A stretch of 64,000 nt of DNA from Catajapyx aquilonaris (lineage: Eukaryota). The stretch lies in assembly GCA_000934665.2 (NCBI GenBank), contig JYFJ02001298.1:1-64000 (forward strand), in the 5' to 3' direction. The notes beneath the pieces are model-generated. The model was not told the DNA's origin and searched no databases. It worked only from the letters and a program-made list of their open reading frames with translations. This document shows, one piece after another, positions 22,015 through 40,590 of the stretch (its first letter is position 1; every line of letters starts with the position of its first letter). Made by a program: the position numbers and the translations under genes.

Positions 22015-23271
22015 GACTCATCTCTCATCCCAACAGTATTACAAAGAAGTACCTTACTGGCACTGGTATTATGTTTTGAAATAAAAATAAAAGCATAATT
22101 TTATGTGCATGGAAAATGCCTTTTACCAAGGATGGGACGAATGACAAAATTTGCCCAAAACTCCTAATAACATTTGCCTTAAAAGTGAGCTTGTGACGTG
22201 TTACATGATTTCTTTGTTTCATGGTGTTAATTTATTTTTGACAGGTGTCCTAAACTTACCAAGTATTTATTTATTTATTTTCTTGTACCTTAAATAGCTT
22301 TTGAATTACAACATAAGTTATATACTTGATGATAATAATGACCGCATTGTTGATTTGTTTTTGCAAGACCTCTTACCATTTCATTGACTGGAGTGGAATT
22401 AGCTGGAATAAATTATTATGGAAATACAGTTTAAGATTGATCACAAAAATAATTTGCAGCAATCCGGCATATGTCAAATCACTACCAACCTAGTTGCCCA
22501 CTCGGAGAGAAAGGTTTTTCATAAACATTTTAACCGATTGTGTACATCAAATTGCATGCAGCAAACTAATGTTGCAGGCAGTATTGTGGATGGATGGACT
22601 GGAATTCAAATAGGATTTCCAATCTGTTTCTTCTTTCTTTATTTGGGCTCATTCCAAACAGAAATCCAATGGATATGTATAATGCAAGTACGGTACAACC
22701 AATAGCTATACACATGTTAACATTAGTTTCGGCTTTGAATCACATAGACGTTATTTACATTGACAGATTATGATGACAATTTCTTTAATTTTCTTGAATA
22801 CTTCAGTATTGTGCACCTGGAAATTACCGGATTTACAGTAGCACTTTTAATGCCCTAATAATATCTATGCAGAGTTAATCAAGTATTGTCGATTCATTAA
22901 TCTTCGAACGGTAACTCGGACAAATACATGCTTCACTACTAACTATAAGTGGTGCTTCAACTGTGATGTAAAGTATAATAATAATAAATCTGCTAGATGC
23001 CAAAGTAACAATATTTGAAGCTACCAGACATGAGGCAAGTGAGAGACACTTGCTGTAAGATTTCGAAGATAAAGTGAAAATAGTGTATATCACAGTAAGG
23101 CACTGATCGAGCCATGGACGAGTACTGGTGATGAGAACGTGTGTTGAGCTATTAATATATGTTGTACTGTATATTCTACCAGGGATTATCCACCGGTGCC
23201 AGGTGCACGTTGCGTTCGCTGTAAAAAAATAATCAGCCATTAATAATTATTGCAGCTATAAATAATGCGTA

Positions 23272-26200
23272 TTAAGTATAGTCGACTGACCGAACAAACT
23301 GCGTGCCGAAGTTGGTCTTTTCCAGGAAAGGATTGTTGGACGGCTGCATTAGCGCCCCTTTTCCTCCATCTCCGTTCATGTCGTTTTCCTTATTCTGCAT
23401 TCCTGGCTTCTTATCTCCCATACGGTACTTGTACAGGCAGTACTCCACGACCAGGGTGACGATCCCTATCCCGATCCCGAAGAAGATCATCATGAACACG
23501 CCTCCAATATTGGGCAGGCTGATACCATCGGACAGGTTGGGATCCCTGGGACACTTCTTCCTGTTCTTGTTCTTGGTCCACCACCACTTCTTCAGGTAGT
23601 CGAAGTGTTTGCTCTTATGCATCTGCACGATACTGAAACGCAGGAAGTAACCATTGGTCAGTAGAAAATGTGTATGTTCAGCAGGTATGTGTCTTTAAGT
23701 GTACTTACGCGTCTGAGAGGATTCCCTTCAAAGGCGAACCCTTCTGCACTGCCAGAGCATAAGGTCTCATCGAAAACCCACCTCCAACTCTCATCAGATC
23801 GCAATTGGTGAGAGTGGCATAGTCGATCACTGTTTCTTCGTCTACACACAAAAAAAAAATTATGTATGGGTCAGCTCAGCTAGATTCATACAAGTCAGCA
23901 ATAAACACATACCAAGCAGAGCAAATCCTTCGCCGTGCAGTGTCGAGTTTCGGATCTTCTCAATGGCAGTGTCGTAGTCTGGTTGCAGCTTGGTCTCCTT
24001 CATGGCCTGCCACATCTTTGTGTACCGATCGCTGATGGGGTAGTCCCAGACGGCCAGCTTGGACCGCTCTACTTCACCCAGGCTGTCGTTCAGGCTCATG
24101 TCCTTCCATATCCTGCACAAAGTAGTTTTGTCAACCAGATCTTCAAGTTATAAAAGGACCTGTACGTACTCATAGAAGCTGTTCTCGATGTCGGCCATCC
24201 TCTCGAAGTACTTGTGGCCGACTGTCTCCAGGATGGGAGAGTACTGAGTCTTGTACTGTCGGCTCAGGTCCTCCAGGTTCTCGATCGGATGTTCCAAACG
24301 GGACACTGTCAGAAAGGCGGCCAGGTTGGCTGTGTATGAGGCGATGATGATGAATCCGAAGAGCCACCAGGTTGCGGCCACCAGTCTTCCGGAGAGATTC
24401 TTTGGGGCTTCTCCTCCTCCTTGAGGGGTCAGAGAGGTCATGCAGAACCACAGGCACTCCTTCAGGTCGAAGATTCGCTTCTCGTCGTCATCGTGGAACT
24501 TGTCGATGTTGTTCTGGTAGCTGTATGGGCTCCATCGGTCGAACACCCAGAGAAGGACGCTGGTGAAGAAGTAGGCCCCAACAATGCAGAACCACACGTC
24601 CGTCTCCAGCACGGTCAAGAACTTGAAGAGTGTGGTGATCGGAGGGATCCTCTTCATCAGGATGGTGATCCCAACCAGGCCGTAGTAAGGCTCGGTGAAG
24701 TCGATGGCCTGTTCCCGCTCGGCCATGACGGACATGGCTCCCAAAGCAATGTCTGCCTCCAGGTCCAGAAGAGCCTTCACCATACCGGACCACTCCTTCG
24801 TCTCCTTGTTCTTGAAGCCGTAGTTGTCCACTTCCTTCGTGATCTCATAGTCGAAGCCAGGGACCAGCCGTTTGATCTGATCCATCATGTCGATGCAGTA
24901 TCCGGAGAAATCGCCTCTCCAGTTCTTCTGGACGAATGGAGGTTGCTGGAATGGGAAGGCATTGTATCAATAGATAGGTTGCCATATTCGGTCTCCCAAT
25001 ATGAAAGTCTTTCCGAATAAAAGTAGACCTCCCGATCTTACCACCACAACGACGACTTTGTACTTGGTTGTCTGCGTGTTGTGCATGTTTCCGATGCCTC
25101 CGGACAGAACGAGCTTCTCAGGTACGATCCAGGAGCCGATGTCCGAGGTCGACCCTGTACCTCCGGCGTAAGATAGAGACCTCAGTTTGATGGAGAATTC
25201 CATCCAGCTTTTTCCGTTCGTGTCCAACTTCAACTGGGAGATCAGAGGCGTCTCCGAACTCTACAGATAGAGACTAATTTTATTGCAATTCTGTTGTATC
25301 AGACCATGATCCACAACGAACCGTTTTGAGACTCCATCGCAGCTGCACATCAGGCTCGAACACGTGGGAGTCCTCCTTGTACTGCGCAATGGTGCTGTAG
25401 TTGCGAGCAGGCCACTTGTTCCTCTTCATCAGGTTGCTGAAATTATTATTTCAATTATTAATAGGCATTGTTGTGGTATCGAACAGACTTACTTGACAGT
25501 CCGCAGCGTTTGGACAGCTAGCTCGAAGTAGAATGCATATTCCACCTGAGGCGCCTCGCTCAATCCGAAATCTGCTGGGGTTTGACCCTTGACCACAGTG
25601 CTCATGTCAGGGAACAGCTGAATGATGGTGGCCCCATCGCAATCACAAACAGGGATGAACTCCTCAGTTCCGATGATGAACCACCGGTACATCCTTGGGT
25701 TGAACAGCTCCAACACCCTCGCCCGATCGAACACCTGCTCGATGGTTTCCTTCGTTCCAATCACAAATAGATTGCGATAGTTGTCCTTCTGGAAATCCCT
25801 CAGGTTCGTGTCCAGCTCATCCTTGGTCTCGGAGTTGTACTCGTATATCTTGAACCTGGCGTTGGTGTTGCGGAACAAATCCTTCTTGCGATGTCTCATT
25901 CCTAGAAATAAAGTACAAGGTGTTACATCGATCTATACTAACTGATGTATATGGTATACTAACGGATGGAGTTGTCGTACACAACTCCGACGTCAGTCAA
26001 GTTTGCTTCTCGAACAAGTGACCTCATGGCCTCAGGGATGTATTGCCCTGGTGGGCTGACCTGTACCAGATACTCTTCGGCCTTCAGACTAAGGTATCCC
26101 CATGCACTGAGCTCTCCGTACGAACCAGTCACGGTTGGAATGGCAAGTGTGTGGGTGATGCCTTTCGTCGCCTGCGACGCCAACCCGGTCATTGTCATGT

Positions 26201-26762
26201 CCAGCACAATATTAGGCTGGGCCTCTGCTTTGACCGCGCTGTCAATCTTCACGCACACTGTTTTGAGAAGTCTTATAAGCAACCATGCCATTAGTTGGTG
26301 CACAGTACTTGTTACACTTACGGTCTTCCACCATGGTTGAAGGCGACATGCTGACGTCTGCATACACCTTTTGCACCTCTCCTATCTCTCCTTCATCTGG
26401 GTGACTTTTGAAATACTCGACAGCAGCGTCGATGGCCTTCTCTGGGACTGGGGTGTCGCTTTCTCCCAGATACACTGTCAGAAATTATAGTTTCTTACAA
26501 AAAAATGCCAGGCACAACACCTGAGCATATAATAGGTCGCTTTCTTATAAATAATTGAGTGCTCCAGATGCGATAACATAAGGTCCGTTCTGCCATGTTT
26601 CAGCATCAAAAAATCAATTTTTCTAACTACGTAAAGTGCACGAAAGATGTCAATTTGATAAAAAAAGAGGTATTGCTTACGGATGTTGACGGCTCCATCT
26701 GACTTCCTGAGGATCAAAGTGGCCCCCAAGAGGCCCAGTAATAGAGCTGTGCAAGAGCCCAT
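23272..26762 (-). CDS. Divergent IR25a paralogue (ionotropic co-receptor with ATD). 10 exons: 26762-26681, 26474-26322, 26257-25964, 25901-25493, 25436-25322, 25260-25042, 24945-24170, 24112-23913, 23841-23709, 23632-23272
   Basis: It has a signal peptide and ATD. IR25a-type segments are WSPYSYQNN, WFCMTSLTPQGGGEAPKNLSGRLVAATWW, SYTANLAAFLT and the extra loop WKDMSLNDSL...LAVWDYPISD. Confidence 0.88.
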
Positions 26763-28970: not shown

Positions 28971-31900
28971 TTAATGGACAACCCACTTGTTGTATTGTGT
29001 GTTGAAGTTGGTCTTTTCCATCTGACCAAAAGCTGCAATGGCGTTGTCGTCGAATCCAGGAGTTGGTGCATCAGCTTCTCCTCCAATCTTGCCTCCAGCC
29101 AGCCTGTGCTTGTAGTACCAGTACTCGAAAGCCAAGGTGATGCAGGCCAATCCGATTCCGACGAAGATCACGATAAACACACCACCTGAAGTGGTCGATT
29201 ATACGTAAGAATCCAGTCCAAAAAAGTGTCTGAAGAACCTATAAGCAGGCTACTTACCAATATTCTGGATGCTGATACCGTCAGACTGTCCAGAGTCCTT
29301 GTCGCACTTGAGCTTCTTGGGGTTCTGATTCCACCATCTTTCCTTCAGCGTCTCGAGTTTCCTCTGATTCAGAAGCTTCAGGATGCTACGAACCAATAGA
29401 AAATGAAGCTTAAACATAGTGGGGAAAAATAATAATCAATTACATGCTTTGTGCAAAGTACGATGGTGCTGTTACATGCGATTACACTAGCAGGAACTCT
29501 ACGATTTATTTAATTGTCCTGCACTTACGCCCCATCCAGCTGGCTCCTGAGTGGAGAACCTTTCTGAACCCCAAGGGCGTACGACTTCTGTGCGACTTCG
29601 TCTCCAATCATCTGCACATCACATTCGGTCATCTCTGCATACCGGATTTCGGATGCATCGCCTGTGCGCAATTTCATACATGCACAGTGCACTCACTGGT
29701 ATCAATTACGACAAAGTTTTTCAGTGTGTTTGTGGACATTCACATTTTTTTTTTGATTTTCATGCTTGTGGAATCAGGTGTATCATAGTGTGGAAAATTG
29801 AATGTTTCATGCGTTTTTGCTGTGTTTGTGCGGCTGAAGAACAATGAAACTCACGCCTCTGAGAATTGATCTTTGAGAGGAGATCCCTTCTGAACGCCAA
29901 CAGCAAAAGGCTTTCGAGAAAACTCCTCTCCGACCTGGACCAGGTCACATGAAGTCATGACTGTGTACTTGATCTCAGTTGCCTCGCCTGGAACCCAACG
30001 CCCAGAGTGTTATTGTCATGACAAACAAACAAAAAAGAGTGGTCGTACTGTCAGTTATGAGTGATGAACATAATAATTATGTAAACTTTAAAAAAAAATC
30101 CACTTGAAACAGGCCCAGCACCATATGATTTTTAATAAACTTAATTGGTCAATTCCTTTGATATGAGTAAAACCAACACTCAAATTATTCAGGCAACTAA
30201 AATTTTTAAATATTTAATTAAAATAGTGAGTGATATTTCAAGTGTAGAAGTACCCATTCAAAAATAATTAAGGCAGTAAAATAGCATCTGAAATAATGTT
30301 CAAATCTGGCATAAATATAAAGTCATGAAACTTCATCCAATCAATACAGTACAAGTATATCCAAAGTAAACGTTTTGTGTTGCAACGAGTCTAATAAAAT
30401 TGCTCCGATATCGATTGAACAATCAATAAAGTAGTCAAAAATATATGCCGTCAGCACTCTGATGATTGTCCACGTCGTATATCTCTGGAACAAACGCTTA
30501 TGGATTTAACTCATTGCATCCAGGTCTGTTAAAAGAAATTAATGGGGAGTGATTTTTTTTTAAAAAAAAGCTTCTCTCTCACCTAAGAAGGCAAACCCTT
30601 CTGAGGATGACTTTGACTTTCGGACACGGACAAGGGCATCTGAAAATGTCTCCGGCAGCTTTGTCTCCTTCATGGCCTGCCACATCTTGGTGAACTTGTC
30701 ACTCACTGGGTAGTCCCAGACAGCCAGCTTGGCTCTCTGGAGCTCATCCAAGCTGTCGTTCAGGCTCATGTCCTTCCAAATCCTGTCAAATAAACAGAGT
30801 TGTTGACCTTTGCGTCAAATTATTACCTCTCAACCAAACTTACTCGTAGAACTTGTGCTCGATGTAGGCCATTCTCTCAAAGTATGTTGAGCTGGAGGTT
30901 CCGTTCATTGGAGCATACTGGATCTTGTACTGCTTGGACAGATCGTCCAGTGACTCGATGGGGGCGTCCAATCGGGACACTGTCAAGAAGGCGGCCAAGT
31001 TAGCTGTGTATGAAGCGATGATGATGAATCCAAAGAGCCACCAGGTAGCGGCCACCAGTCTTCCTGACACGTTCTTCGGGGCTTCTCCTCCTCCTTGAGG
31101 GGTCAGAGAGGTCATGCAGAACCACAAGGATTCCTTCAGGGTGAACTCTCGCTTCTCATCGTCATCCTTGTACTTCTCCTTATTGTTCTGGTAGCTGTAT
31201 GGGCTAAACCGGTCGAATATCCACAGCAGCAGGCTGAAAAGAATCATTGTTAAGGCATTGTTGGGCAATATTCTGAAATGATGTTTATATGTATAATGTG
31301 CTTACCTTGTGAAAAAGTAGGCAGCCAAGATGCAGAGCCACACATCAGTCTCGAGCACAGTCAAGAACTTGAAGAGTGATGTTGGAACAGATGGTTTCTT
31401 CATCAGGATGCTAATTCCGACCAAATCGTAGTAAGGCACTGTGAAGTCGATCACATTCTCTCTCTCAGCCATCACAGATAGGGCTCCCAGGGCAATGTCA
31501 GCTCTCTGCGATCATTACAATACCAATTAACCAAAAGCTACCAATTTAGCTAATGAAAGTATTAGTGACTTCCAACAAACCTTGTCCACAAGCTCTCGAA
31601 TCATGCCGTTCCATTGCTTGTTGTCGTCCATGGCTCCATATCGTTTGTCGTCAACTTCGCGGATCTCGTAGTCGAAAGGAATGATCTTCCTGATTTCCTC
31701 CAGCAACTGAATGCAGTATCCTTCGTAGCACTTTTCTCCAACACAATCCTCAATCTTCTCCACAAATGGTGGTTGCTGAGAAAAAAGCGAGATCACAAAA
31801 TGAAAAACTATTGCAAGTTTGTTCCCAAACGCCTTTTTTATTTCCAGCCTTTATACACATGGAAGCTTGGGACATTTTATGTACACAGTTTGGAATTTAT

Positions 31901-36517: not shown

Positions 36518-39500
36518 TTATTCAAGGAAAGGATAAGGAGCTTTTTTGCGAAATGATAAGGCTACAATGCGACGTGCAGCTTTTTCCCTTCGCTTCCGCC
36601 AAACTTCCATTCCATACATGAGGGCAGCCAAGCACAATCCTGAAAAACAGTGTTAGAGCGACATGCTGTGACAATTTATGTCCATTACAATAATAATCTC
36701 GAATAAACCACATGAAGGTCACCTAGAAGTAGGAGACAAAAAGTTCCGGCCAGATCCTCCAGCCCCACAGATTTGGCTCCGGAGGTGTTGGCTCTTTTGC
36801 TCCTGGCAGCTGCTTCGACATAGCAAGTTCTCTTCGCAGGCCAAGTCTCGCTCTTCCATTTGGCTACTAAACCACTGCGAACAAGCTGGATCAATCTATT
36901 ATTTAAAAATAAATAACAATTACAGAGGCACCGACGATGAAAGTGCATTTCAACGACACTGGTATGCTATCGGTCATGTCCAGCAGTGGCATAAAAATCA
37001 ACTCACACCTATCTTGTGCAAAATCTCCAAAATGTTACTGTCTATATTGATGGAATACATTATTAAGAGCGTATATGTTTACATAATATTATTTAGAAAA
37101 CTTTTCCACAAAATTTTGGCAACCGAAGCTCTCTTAACTCGGCTACAAAAATGTAAATAATTAAGGGGATTTATGACAAAAGTTGTCTTCACTTTACGAA
37201 AAACGTTTCAGCTCATGGAAACTTGAATTTGTTTTCATATCATATCATTTTGATAGTCAAGTACTCTGCGGAAAAAGTATTCAGAGGGGGCCCTCTGAGT
37301 ATGTTATCGACGACGTTTCTCTACCTTGCAAATATTCTTATCAATACCGACATGTCTTCTAGTTAGGCTACATATTATTTCTTTCATTCATAATGCACTC
37401 TCTGCGTGGGTTCAAGGCTTCTTCCAACCCATTCTGCCCATTGTACCCCTTCGAAGCCCTCAACTCAACCTCAACTACTATATCGACTTGTTCTTTCTAT
37501 AGTTGCTCTATAGTCTTAAAATCCAGTATACATTTCACTTACTCTGAGTTAAATCTGGAAAGATGAGGACTGTCCTTGGGAACAGCCAACGCCACTTGCT
37601 CCTCCAGAAAATCGTACGGACCTTCGAAAACAAGATCCATTAAAATACATGATCAGTTCTGATCGTCGACAATGCGTATACTACATACCAGCTAACCGGA
37701 CGTTACATAAGACAGAATCTGCTAGGAATCCCCGAAAGCGCTCCCTTGAATCCATAACGACCATCTTCTCGTCTCTGATCATCTCCAGGGTCTTGAGCAT
37801 GTCTTCCTCTCCGTGGTCCAGCACCACAGCTTCCTGGATGGAGGTCGGGTACATCTCGAGTCCCGACCTGTTCACAAATGGCGAGGACCTCAACAGGCCC
37901 AGTGGCGGATAAGTGTACGAGATGCTGAAGACGGACTGCTGAGTTCCTGGCATGGACAGAAGGTGTTTCATCAGACCAGAGTCAAGGCTGGCTGGTTTCC
38001 TCTGGCTCAGCAAAGCAACCAGTGACCCTGAATACAGGGTCGTGGTCACCAATGTGGTTGCCCACCAGGCACCGGCTACGCATCGGGCTGCACCTCCTGG
38101 TGAACGAACCGTGGCTCCTCCTGAAAAAAGTGTGTCGGATATAAACAACAAAATATTCTTCTGGAAGAACATAATACAGTACCTTGTTGCAAGGCAGCTC
38201 CCATGACATACCAGCAGCAAAGAAAAAAGCTCGAAAGAGATGGATCTCCTGGTTTTATGGCTGGTATCACTCTCATTGAGAACAGGTACAGAATAGGTCC
38301 CACGAGAGCTACTGCTGCTAGTATGGCAAGCCATGCCTGGCCAAATAAAATGAGATGATCATTTGGAGCTGATTGGAACAGAATATCCTTACCAGAGTGG
38401 AGTAAGGCTGCAGGAAGAGCAGAAGGCGTCCCAAGTGTCCAGGTGCCTTGACCAAAAAGGCGTATCTCCTGGAGGCGAACACTGTGGTGAAATCTAGGAT
38501 GGTGCTGGAATTGTCGTTGTACACTGGAAAAGCAACTGCAGCAAGAGACACCTCGTTTCTCTGCAGTTGACCCAAAACTCCGGTCCAGACACCATCAGAG
38601 TCCTCATAGCCCCAGAGGCTACCATCTTCAGGTACCATCACTTCATAGCTAAAATGTTTATGACGCATTGTGAGTAGCCGTTATCCTAACAGTTCAGAGC
38701 TAACCATGCGACTCGCATGTTCGCAGCTCAGTCTGCCTTACAGGATAAAGATAAATTCCGTCTTTCAGAAGTAAAAGAAAAATACTGTCAGACACTTACC
38801 TGAAATTCATTCTAACAGATAGTTCATCCAAGATGCGGAAGACTAACCCAGATGAGTAGATGACACGACCGAATTCGTCCACTTCTACAATCTGCCAAGG
38901 AGGAAACTACAGCAGAATGTTAGATAATAATTAGAATGTCAGCAATATTCTTACATGAAAAGATCCGACTTTGAGTACCCGACCCCTCATTCCCCCTTGA
39001 ACATTTGGAAAAGTCTGGTCTCGCATCCTCGTTCCGGTCATGGGTGACCACCATCCGGCTACCAGAAGGTCAGGGTTCCCTCCTTCGATGGTCCTGAATG
39101 TCCAGCGGTCACAGGTGACCTCGATTGACTCCAGGGCATCCTTAGTGGCTGTGATGATGTCCGCACTGTGCTGGGCCCAGGAAGGACGCACCTGGTCCCA
39201 TTCATCCTCAGGGAATTCATTCCAGAGGTTCAGCTCCTCGTTCACAGTCTTCTCCAGGCCTTTGGTCACTGCTTCAATTAGTGTCCTGGAATGTGACTTG
39301 ACCTGTTCCTCCAACTTCGATTGGGTCGAACAAACCCTATCTGCCGACCCATCTCTTTCGGGATCCTTCTGCAGAAAGCAAACGTTATCGCCGTCATGGA
39401 GAAGTTGAACCAGGCGACTTTCAGCGTCTGGGTCGTCTCCCAGGACTATGAACCACTGGTAAGAAGGTCCTAAGAATCCGTGTAGCCTTGCCTGCAACAA

Positions 39501-40590
39501 TATTAAGAGGAAAAGTACAATGACTTTTCTACTGCTGATGAAGAAAAAACCCGTGCATTTTCTACAAGCTTTTTCTCAAAACTGTGCACTCAAATCTGAC
39601 ATCTGTCATTTATTGTCATTATTGAAAATGCTGACCGCTAAGAGGAAGTTTGCTGTGGTCTCATCTCTCAGCACAGTCATGAACCGTAGTCCTTCGGGCC
39701 TCCGTGTGAAAGAGGACAGGGTGTCTCGTAAGTAGTTGTCATACTGAGACTTGTAGCGACCTGGCACCCGGAATAAAGAGATGGCCGTTCCAGAATCGTC
39801 GTCCCTGACAGGTTGAGTGACAGCGCTGATTAGTTGATGAATCTCTTCAGTGCCTATATATAAACAGATTAATGATCAAGTAATTGTGAGAATAAAATTT
39901 AGTAAAAGTCTCACCGACGGAATCATCTACAAAGAGGCAAACGTCTTTCCAGTGAAGGGCACCATCTTGCCTCATGTCCAAAATTATTTGATTCAGGTAA
40001 GCCTGAGACGGAATAGCGGCAATGGACATGGACATGGATGACCTCAACCGAAGACATCCAGGTTCTAAAGTAAAAACATTATCATAAGCTGCACTCTGTA
40101 TTATTGCTCTATATCCAGTACCTGTGATTAGGGCAGCCTGATAAGCATCTCCTTCCTGCATAGTCTCCTGAAGTCTCCAGGTCATGTCACAGCCTCCAAC
40201 ACTCATGACCCCGCCGATATCTGAATTTTACAGTTAATTTTAAAGTATGTTCAACTTATATTAAAGCATTATTACCTCCAGGTAAATGCATGGCTTCATT
40301 GCTGGCTACAAATTCAATGCTGAGGTTTCCATGAACTAGAAAATCTGCCTGGGCCGATATTTTGGCTTCAGTTATGATAAATCTGAGTCCCTGCTGCTGT
40401 GAGTCGTTCCCTTCCAAAACGACGCCTGCAATATTTATTTACACCTCATGAACCCTGCACAAGTCAATTGAATAAAAATACACGTACCCAACACAGAATC
40501 CTGAAATTCGAAGTCTCCTTGCTCAGAGTCATCCTGAGCAATGCTGCAACCAAAGGCACACAACAGGAAAAACCGAAAGATCCTTTGCAT
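36518..40590 (-). CDS. Ir93a: IR93a-like ionotropic receptor. Exons about 40590-40488, 40425-40275, 40220-40122, 40064-39915, 39853-39636, 39491-38955, 38906-38800, 38648-38393, 38336-38183, 38120-37689, 37621-37543, 36895-36723, 36639-36518
   Basis: It has a signal peptide and long N-terminal domain (CDMTW...EPGCLRL). Further segments are FPNVQGGMRGRVL..FHFPPWQIV, GLVFRILDELS..MNF, GRLLLFLQPY, WYVMGAALQQGG, TLYSGSLVALL, SGLVAKWK..WPAKRTC and VGLEDLAGTFCLL. It is clearly an IR; the IR93a assignment comes from motif recall. Confidence 0.78.

What the first reader, a model, noticed from the sequence alone, without database searches (positions are those of the whole stretch)
29386..29854. Five Rbfox-type (T)GCATG elements in the two introns downstream of the alternative IR25a exons
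Seen in sequence: on the transcribed (minus) strand GCATG occurs at plus-strand positions 29808-12, 29761-65, 29679-84, 29475-79 and 29443-47. The 29679-84 copy is a full TGCATG about 20 nt upstream of the 12B acceptor, within a pyrimidine-poor tract. That is 5 hits in 336 intronic nt, against roughly 0.3 expected for a random 5-mer. I found none in the 595-nt intron upstream of 12A. Established knowledge: Rbfox/A2bp1 proteins bind (U)GCAUG and tend to enhance upstream exons and repress downstream ones. Inference: Rbfox levels set the 12A/12B choice in a cell-type-specific way. This independently supports the exon pair being functional.
Basis: partly seen in the sequence, partly recalled or inferred. 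Interest (0 to 1): 0.72.

Follow-up and report, generated by a model that had tools for sequence, protein, structure and literature searches.

The report
Rbfox-type motif cluster beside IR25a twin exons
Five copies of the short RNA word that Rbfox splicing proteins recognise sit in the two small introns next to a pair of either-or exons of a crustacean-like smell and taste co-receptor gene, which makes Rbfox a reasonable but unproven candidate for choosing between the two exon versions.

Summary
Five GCATG lie on the transcribed (minus) strand at the stated places. All five are intronic and none lies on the antisense strand there. Only one is the full TGCATG.

They fall in 336 nt against 0.38 expected (P about 5e-5). 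The gene's other 13 introns hold 2 in 3163 nt (Fisher P 1.4e-4). The signal is less clean than it looks:
- A cluster this dense somewhere in the 64-kb window has a 6-9% chance.
- The pentamer TCGTA is almost as enriched.
- Four metagenome loci with the same tandem exon pair show no enrichment (2 in 2291 nt).

The exon pair itself is well supported. Both exons are 133 nt with the same phase and AG/GT borders. RefSeq isoform pairs in six decapod species differ in exactly this exon.

Spliced contigs of one run join exon 12A to exon 13. I found no RNA or protein evidence for 12B.

Verdict: a plausible Rbfox-type intronic regulatory cluster, a new member of a known kind. Binding, direction of effect and conservation in close relatives remain untested.

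The parts
29808..29812 (-). GCATG copy 1 (context CGCATGAAA), +43..+47 of the intron after exon 12A
29761..29765 (-). GCATG copy 2 (context AGCATGAAA), +90..+94 of the intron after exon 12A
29679..29684 (-). TGCATG, the only full hexamer (context TGCATGTAT), -23..-18 from the first base of exon 12B
29475..29479 (-). GCATG copy 4 (context CGCATGTAA), +50..+54 of the intron after exon 12B
29443..29447 (-). GCATG copy 5 (context AGCATGTAA), +82..+86 of the intron after exon 12B. Its last G starts the 9-mer GTAATTGAT, which also occurs in the other intron.
29855..29987 (-). Exon 12A, 133 nt, acceptor AG and donor GTGAGT. Used in spliced contigs of run X5 and in Logan protein P0002.
29662..29854 (-). 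Intron between 12A and 12B, 193 nt, with three GCATG
29529..29661 (-). Exon 12B, 133 nt, same phase as 12A, acceptor AG and donor GTAAGT. It is 51% identical to 12A in protein (23 of 45). No RNA or protein record found.
29386..29528 (-). Intron between 12B and exon 13, 143 nt, with two GCATG
29258..29385 (-). Exon 13 (begins ILKLLNQRKLETLKERWW), joined directly to 12A in X5 contigs (joint 29385 to 29855)
29988..30582 (-). Intron upstream of 12A, 595 nt, no GCATG

Best explanation
The five sense-strand GCAUG copies are an Rbfox-type intronic splicing-regulatory cluster. They lie inside the 469-nt interval that is removed as a single intron when exon 12A of this IR25a gene is used.

Proposed working:
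- The two exons are each 133 nt, which is not a multiple of three. Using both or neither breaks the reading frame, so only one-exon mRNAs are productive.
- Where Rbfox is present, the copies at +43 and +90 downstream of 12A promote use of the 12A donor.
- The UGCAUG at -23..-18 of the 12B acceptor sits in its pyrimidine-poor 3' splice-site region and hinders recognition of 12B.
- The two copies downstream of 12B either help the 12A-to-13 joining, as the UGCAUG in unc-32 intron 7b does for exon 7a, or support 12B in cells where it is chosen.
- Net prediction: Rbfox favours 12A, and low Rbfox permits 12B.

Shown here: the motif positions and local enrichment, the structure of the exon pair, its conservation elsewhere, and the 12A-to-13 joint in spliced contigs.

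Inferred: Rbfox binding, the direction of the effect, and that 12B is used at all.
For: - 5 GCATG in 336 intronic nt against 0.38 expected (P = 5e-5).
- About 24-fold denser than the gene's other 13 introns, which hold 2 in 3163 nt (Fisher P = 1.4e-4).
- All five are on the sense strand, with none antisense in these two introns and none in exon 12B.
- Excluding the A-run, GCATG is the most frequent and the most enriched pentamer of these introns.
- Three of five extend to GCATGT, as in the Rbfox heptamer UGCAUGU (heptamer recalled; sequence).
- The positions fit the known position-dependent action. PMC3585155 (passages) reports a UGCAUG in the upstream intron repressing egl-15 5B, and a UGCAUG in intron 7b needed for unc-32 exon 7a. 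PMC12772994 (passages) reports TGCATG sites and an Rbfox2 knockdown effect on SCN9A 5a/5b.
- The exon pair is a genuine, old alternative pair. Both exons are 133 nt with AG/GT borders. Third codon positions carry most differences between 12B and the canonical-type copies (12, 8 and 27 differences at positions 1, 2 and 3).
- RefSeq isoform pairs in 6 decapod species differ in exactly this 45-residue exon.
- Four distinct metagenome loci carry tandem 133+133-nt copies.
- Spliced contigs of run X5 join 29385 to 29855, that is exon 12A to exon 13.
- No Rfam family and no tandem repeat explains the sequence.
Against: - Only 1 of 5 copies has the 5' U of the full hexamer.
- A cluster this dense somewhere in the window is expected in 6% of windows on one strand and 9% on either strand.
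- TCGTA is almost as enriched: 4 against 0.21.
- The copies share 8-mers (GCATGAAA twice, GCATGTAA twice), so there may be fewer than five independent events, or a different extended motif.
- In the 4 metagenome loci with the same tandem exon pair, the two corresponding introns hold 2 GCATG in 2291 nt, which is the background rate.
- Single-copy loci hold 3 in 4545 nt downstream of the exon. The cluster is therefore not a deep conserved feature. Close relatives could not be examined.
- No protein in the 5.8-billion-sequence collection shares words with 12B.
- 12B sits on a long branch (0.83 against a median of 0.041). In the 12-row alignment A1, T3, F22, S23, R24 and P26 are kept in at least 90% of rows, and 12B differs from exon 12A at each of them.
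- A thermodynamic fold predicts 3 of 5 copies mostly paired (unpaired probability 0.04). This is weak evidence.
Confidence: 0.45

Rival explanations
1. Chance cluster. The five GCATG are a statistical accident in A/T-rich introns with some internal word repetition, and they have no role in splicing.
For: - The window-wide scan probability is 0.06-0.09.
- The window as a whole is not enriched.
- TCGTA, which I know as no splicing motif, is similarly enriched.
- Four of five copies lack the 5' U.
- There is no enrichment in 4 loci with the homologous exon pair, nor in the single-copy loci.
- Repeated 8-mers and other short direct repeats in these introns hint at local word duplication.
Against: - The location was fixed beforehand by the exon pair, and at that location P is 5e-5 to 6e-4.
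- The strand split is 5 to 0.
- Density is 24-fold that of the other introns of the same gene.
- Apart from the 8-mers, the flanks of the copies do not align. Similarity between the two introns is marginal (about 3% of shuffles score as high) and lies elsewhere.
Confidence: 0.3
2. Exon 12B is a decaying or very rarely used relic in this lineage. The GCAUG copies, if functional, act only as a downstream intronic enhancer that secures inclusion of 12A in neurons. They are not a switch between two isoforms.
For: - Only the 12A form is seen: X5 spliced contigs and P0002, 98% identical over the exon-12A segment.
- No protein shares words with 12B.
- 12B has a long branch and differs from exon 12A at five positions kept in at least 90% of the alignment rows.
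- Its acceptor is pyrimidine-poor and overlapped by TGCATG.
Against: - 12B keeps an open frame, the exact 133-nt length, AG and GTAAGT borders, and a third-position-biased substitution pattern.
- The pair is kept in decapods and in 4 metagenome loci.
- Contigs drop rare variants, so absence from one run says little.
Confidence: 0.15
3. The repeated word is read by something other than Rbfox. Candidates are another RNA-binding protein that recognises an extended GCAUGWA(A) motif, pairing between the self-complementary GCAUGU copies, or a DNA-level intronic enhancer.
For: - All five copies continue as GCATG[A/T]A, and four of five as GCATG[A/T]AA.
- Three copies are predicted to be base-paired.
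- GCAUGU can pair with itself using G-U ends (my reading of the sequence).
Against: - I recall no known factor for such an extended motif.
- Complementarity between the introns is not above shuffles.
- The strict sense-strand orientation favours an RNA-level reading.
- (U)GCAUG is the textbook Rbfox site (PMC3585155).
Confidence: 0.1

Closest known systems
[quoted passage not shown]
   Same: A two-member mutually exclusive exon cluster with (U)GCAUG in the flanking introns. A site upstream of an exon represses it (egl-15 5B). A site in the intron after the second exon promotes the first exon (unc-32 7a).
   Different: Those cases rest on one defined UGCAUG each, proven by reporter mutation and mutants. 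Here there are five copies, four of them core-only, and nothing has been tested. A co-factor such as UNC-75 or SUP-12 has not been identified here.
Vertebrate SCN sodium-channel exons 5a/5b with TGCATG/Rbfox2 sites (PMC12772994, abstract and passages read)
   Same: A duplicated mutually exclusive exon pair in a neuronal ion-channel gene, with several TGCATG in the intron downstream of the second exon. The authors also argue from the improbability of repeated hexamers.
   Different: In SCN the motifs are conserved between paralogs and across vertebrates, work with a conserved RNA bridge, and respond to Rbfox2 knockdown. Here I found no conservation and no intron pairing above chance.
Decapod IR25a RefSeq isoform pairs (for example Penaeus chinensis X1/X2, Panulirus ornatus X1/X2, Scylla paramamosain X1/X5, Macrobrachium nipponense X1/X2)
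   Same: The same gene, the same 45-residue exon swapped, and identical flanks. Exon 12A groups with the decapod alternative form with modest support.
   Different: These are automatic annotations. Their introns could not be read here, so it is unknown whether they carry GCATG clusters.
AMPA-receptor flip/flop exons (recalled, not from a call)
   Same: An either-or exon pair in the S2 part of the ligand-binding domain of a glutamate-receptor-family subunit, shortly before the last membrane segment.
   Different: By my own alignment to recalled sequences, the IR25a pair lies one exon upstream of the flip/flop-equivalent segment. It arose independently.

Membership tests
Rbfox-regulated alternative exon | (U)GCAUG on the pre-mRNA sense strand in an intron close to the regulated exon | tested here: met
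   Five copies lie at +43, +90 and -23..-18 in the 12A-12B intron and at +50 and +82 in the 12B-13 intron.
Rbfox-regulated alternative exon | Full high-affinity hexamer UGCAUG | tested here: inconclusive
   1 of 5 copies is TGCATG. The others are CGCATG or AGCATG.
Rbfox-regulated alternative exon | Motif conserved in orthologous introns | tested here: not met
   Four distant loci with the same tandem exon pair hold 2 GCATG in 2291 nt of the corresponding introns. Close relatives and decapods could not be read, so the test is incomplete.
Rbfox-regulated alternative exon | An Rbfox protein is encoded and expressed in the same cells | not testable with these tools
   No genome is held. An earlier unchecked scan note (e1-7683083) reports an RBFOX gene elsewhere in this genome.
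Rbfox-regulated alternative exon | Splicing changes on motif mutation or Rbfox loss; direct binding | not testable with these tools
   This needs a minigene, RNAi or CLIP.
Mutually exclusive exon pair from tandem exon duplication | Adjacent exons of equal length and phase, homologous, each with its own splice sites | tested here: met
   Both are 133 nt with AG and GT borders. They are 51% identical in protein (23 of 45) and 61% in DNA (81 of 133).
Mutually exclusive exon pair from tandem exon duplication | Using both or neither is unproductive | tested here: met
   133 is not a multiple of three. That such mRNAs are then degraded is inferred.
Mutually exclusive exon pair from tandem exon duplication | Both forms present in RNA | tested here: inconclusive
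   Only the 12A-13 joint is seen in X5 contigs. No protein shares words with 12B. Contigs can miss rare forms.
Mutually exclusive exon pair from tandem exon duplication | Pair kept in other species | tested here: met
   Isoform pairs in 6 decapod species and 4 metagenome loci with tandem 133-nt copies.
IR25a (ionotropic receptor co-receptor) | Best similarity to named IR25a proteins over the pore and ligand-binding exons | tested here: met
   The 153-residue exon is 91-92% identical to the penaeid, brachyuran and spiny-lobster IR25a records and 89-92% across all decapod rows listed. P0002 aligns along 15 exons.
Docking/selector RNA-structure control of mutually exclusive exons (Dscam, 14-3-3 type) | Intron-intron complementarity beyond chance | tested here: not met
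   The best duplex and the best ungapped pairing among the three introns fall within shuffled controls (fractions 0.07 to 0.78).

The most novel reading that the evidence does not exclude
IR25a, the universal co-receptor of arthropod ionotropic chemoreceptors, carries an ancient pancrustacean either-or exon in its ligand-binding S2 lobe that insects have lost. In this lineage the choice is set by Rbfox dose through a five-site intronic module. Different sensory neurons would then build co-receptors with different pocket or gating properties, an independent analogue of the flip/flop switch of AMPA receptors.
Probability: 0.2. Interest if true: 0.7.

Novelty: new member of a known kind. Interest (0 to 1): 0.4.

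Why it matters
IR25a is the most conserved and most broadly used co-receptor for smell, taste, temperature and humidity sensing in arthropods. It is usually treated as a single invariant subunit.

A regulated either-or exon in its ligand-binding lobe would mean two co-receptor versions. A recognisable Rbfox-type control module would give a direct experimental handle through motif mutation or Rbfox knockdown.

The three literature searches I ran found no paper describing alternative IR25a exons, although RefSeq already annotates the isoforms in decapods. The Rbfox element itself would be one more case of a well-known mechanism.

Tried and rejected
- **Whole genome.** None is held, so genome-wide intron enrichment and a search for the Rbfox gene were not possible.
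- **Duplicated introns as the source of the copies.** The best local alignment of the two introns is a 14-nt block, TTTTCC(A/C)CACTATG. About 3% of shuffles score as high, and the block does not include the motifs. Rejected as the main cause.
- **RNA pairing between introns (docking/selector or looping out 12A).** The repeat finder listed a 27-nt, 74% complementary pair (30021-30047 with 29707-29733). Duplex energy and ungapped pairing scores do not exceed shuffles. One search timed out and was rerun as with plain shuffles.
- **Known RNA families and tandem repeats in 29200-30700.** None found.
- **Sequencing runs.** No RNA holder was listed. Run X5, of unstated kind, behaves as RNA because its contigs are spliced. 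It has no cover of 12B.
- **Protein search with 12B, longer proteins only.** 2 candidates shared words with the query; none scored.
- **Earlier scan notes.** Nothing near this place or like this sequence.
- **PMC3303723 (motifs in insect mutually exclusive exons).** No mention of GCAUG or Fox.
- **PMC6497305 and PMC7067487 (crustacean IR25a).** The passages found say nothing on alternative IR25a exons.
- **Pfam scan of neighbouring gene pieces.** It failed on stop codons and was not repeated.

Full report
**1. The observation**

On the minus strand, GCATG occurs at 29808-12, 29761-65, 29679-83, 29475-79 and 29443-47. The third copy is TGCATG (29679-84). The other four are preceded by C or A.

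I fixed the exon borders from the sequence, from a spliced alignment to the closest full-length homolog, and from spliced contigs:

| Feature | Coordinates | Length |
|---|---|---|
| Exon 12A | 29987-29855 | 133 nt |
| Intron 12A-12B | 29854-29662 | 193 nt |
| Exon 12B | 29661-29529 | 133 nt |
| Intron 12B-13 | 29528-29386 | 143 nt |
| Exon 13 | from 29385 | |

All five copies are intronic. No antisense copy (CATGC on the transcribed strand) lies in either intron. The 595-nt intron upstream of 12A holds no GCATG.

The TGCATG sits at -23 to -18 from the first base of 12B. That acceptor context is printed, and I count about 7 pyrimidines in its last 18 positions.

**2. Is it more than chance?**

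At the window's minus-strand rate (75 per 64 kb), 0.38 copies are expected in the 328 possible positions. The Poisson P for 5 or more is 5e-5. The introns' base composition gives 0.18. A first-order Markov model of the introns gives 0.65, with P = 6e-4.

The other 13 introns of the same gene hold 2 copies in 3163 nt. That is a 24-fold difference, with Fisher P = 1.4e-4. Leaving out the A-run, GCATG is the most frequent and the most enriched pentamer in the two introns.

Several results weaken this:
- The window as a whole is not enriched: 141 on both strands against 153 +/- 14 in shuffles.
- A 370-nt span with 5 or more copies somewhere in a window of this size arises in 6% of simulations on one strand and in 9% on either strand.
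- TCGTA, which I know as no splicing motif, reaches 4 against 0.21 expected.
- The copies fall into two 8-mers, GCATGAAA twice in the first intron and GCATGTAA twice in the second, plus GCATGTAT. The events may not be independent.

The two introns are not alignable copies of each other. The best block is 14 nt, about 3% of shuffles score as high, and it excludes the motifs.

My reading is that the enrichment is real at a place fixed beforehand by the exon pair. Its strength is moderate, not overwhelming.

**3. What the gene and the exon pair are**

The 153-residue pore exon is 91-92% identical to the penaeid, brachyuran and spiny-lobster IR25a records, and 89-92% across all decapod rows listed. 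It is 98% identical to an unnamed Logan transcript product, P0002. P0002 aligns along 15 exons between 35301 and about 28880 on the minus strand.

Exons 12A and 12B share length, phase, AG acceptors and strong donors (GTGAGT and GTAAGT). They are 51% identical in protein (23 of 45) and 61% in DNA. Because 133 is not a multiple of three, including both or neither shifts the frame.

The pair is not peculiar to this genome:
- In six decapod species, RefSeq isoform pairs differ in exactly this 45-residue segment and have identical flanks. The species are Penaeus chinensis, P. japonicus, P. vannamei, Panulirus ornatus, Scylla paramamosain and Macrobrachium nipponense.
- A scan of metagenome contigs returned 46 loci. 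Four distinct loci (L014, which equals L015; L016; L018; L021) carry two tandem 133-nt copies with AG/GT borders between the neighbouring exons.

A tree of the 45 columns has few columns and modest support. It puts 12A with the decapod alternative form and the first copy of the metagenome loci (90/73). It puts 12B, on a long branch (0.83 against a median of 0.041), among the canonical second copies.

12B differs from canonical-type copies mostly at third codon positions (12, 8 and 27 differences at positions 1, 2 and 3). It has therefore been a coding exon for most of its history. In the 12-row alignment A1, positions T3, F22, S23, R24 and P26 are kept in at least 90% of rows, and 12B differs from exon 12A at each of them.

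**4. RNA evidence**

No run on record as RNA holds the stretch. Run X5, of unstated kind, gives contigs with GT..AG-type joints on the minus strand. One of these joints is 29385 to 29855, which is exon 13 joined to 12A and skipping 12B. X5 has no cover of 12B.

P0002 also carries the 12A form. No protein in the large collection shares words with 12B.

Contigs and this word-based search can miss rare forms. Use of 12B is therefore open, not excluded.

**5. Conservation of the motifs**

- In the four loci with the tandem pair, the intron between the copies and the intron after the second copy together hold 2 GCATG in 2291 nt.
- One of the two is a TGCATG 36-41 nt before the second copy's acceptor in L018.
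- Single-copy loci hold 3 in 4545 nt downstream of the exon and 4 in 3558 nt upstream.

These are background rates. The cluster is therefore not an old feature of the IR25a exon pair. It may be specific to this lineage, or it may be an accident. Introns of decapods and of close relatives could not be read with the tools at hand.

**6. Rival mechanisms examined**

- Intron-intron pairing of the Dscam or 14-3-3 type: the longest complementary pair links a U/G-rich run just upstream of 12A with C/A-rich repeats in the 12A-12B intron. Neither duplex energies nor ungapped pairing scores exceed shuffled controls.
- No Rfam family and no tandem repeat lies in the region.
- A partition-function fold predicts two copies accessible and three mostly paired. 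This is weak evidence either way. GCAUGU is self-complementary, which may explain the predicted pairing.

**7. How it most likely works**

I commit, at 45%, to an Rbfox-type intronic module.
- The sites at +43 and +90 enhance the 12A donor.
- The UGCAUG just before the 12B acceptor hinders 12B.
- The two sites after 12B either assist the 12A-to-13 joining or support 12B where it is chosen.
- Frame incompatibility removes double or null products.

This matches established position-dependent Rbfox action and the worked examples of unc-32 7a/7b and egl-15 5A/5B (PMC3585155, abstract and passages) and SCN 5a/5b (PMC12772994, abstract and passages).

The exon-pair layout alone does not fix the direction. 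My prediction that Rbfox favours 12A rests on the position of the -23..-18 site and on 12A being the form seen in RNA.

Two unchecked earlier notes on other pieces of this genome report an RBFOX gene and TGCATG-rich introns in a dumpy-like gene. I could not test them.

**8. Comparison and novelty**

Rbfox motifs flanking mutually exclusive exons are a known kind. This would be a new member in a gene where no such control is described. Three literature searches found no paper on alternative IR25a exons.

The motif cluster adds little independent support for the exon pair. The decapod isoforms and the metagenome loci support the pair far better.

Interest is moderate. The mechanism is ordinary if true. 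The more notable point, which lies outside this finding, is the old either-or exon in the ligand-binding lobe of a co-receptor usually treated as invariant.

Noticed in passing
window 23179-26472 (minus strand): A second glutamate-receptor-family gene lies directly downstream of IR25a. It is about 45% identical to P0002 over residues 182-763 in one long tblastn stretch, so it appears to have few introns. It was not identified further because the Pfam call failed on stop codons.
   Followed up: partly
window 37681-39575 (minus strand): Open frames with ionotropic-receptor-like sequence lie upstream of IR25a (for example FPPWQIVEVDEFGRVIYSSGLVFRILDELSVRMNF and a pore-like stretch). This suggests a third IR or iGluR gene in the window.
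   Followed up: no
window 30655-30785 and 30967-31107: DNA runs X1, X3 and X4 and the spliced run X5 each hold another contig that is only about 84-91% identical to these two IR25a exons (21 and 13 differences). The organism therefore has an expressed close paralog of IR25a elsewhere.
   Followed up: no
window 30017-30047; 29814-29830 and 29707-29734: A U/G-rich run (TTTTTTGTTTGTTTGT) lies 30-50 nt before the 12A acceptor. It is complementary to two C/A-rich direct repeats in the 12A-12B intron. It resembles the UUGUUGUGUUGU element bound by the CELF protein UNC-75 in unc-32 (PMC3585155). The pairing is not above chance.
   Followed up: partly
window 29701-29709 and 29435-29443: The 9-mer GTAATTGAT occurs once in each of the two introns. 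By my own reading, its TTGAT fits a yUnAy branch-point pattern. In the second intron it starts at the last G of a GCATG.
   Followed up: no
L014/L015, L016, L018, L021 (metagenome loci); decapod proteins P0007, P0005, P0138, P0147: The IR25a exon pair (a first copy of GEAT...KGSPLKE.FS type and a second copy of canonical GDAT...QLNDA type) is present in unrelated metagenome contigs and as RefSeq isoforms in decapods. Every insect-labelled row among the IR25a proteins scanned shows a single exon form. This points to an old pancrustacean alternative exon that insects lost.
   Followed up: partly
L014 and L015 (one contig, Ga0194135_10000286): The contig carries the same IR25a exons in both orientations, head to head. 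This is probably a palindromic assembly artefact.
   Followed up: no
window 29529-29661: Exon 12B reads DEVAQKS where 12A and the ten typed arthropod segments in alignment A1 read [ED]EFSRKP. A1 flags F22, S23, R24 and P26 as kept in at least 90% of rows. By my recalled alignment to GluA2 and GluK2, this segment lies next to the ligand pocket.
   Followed up: no
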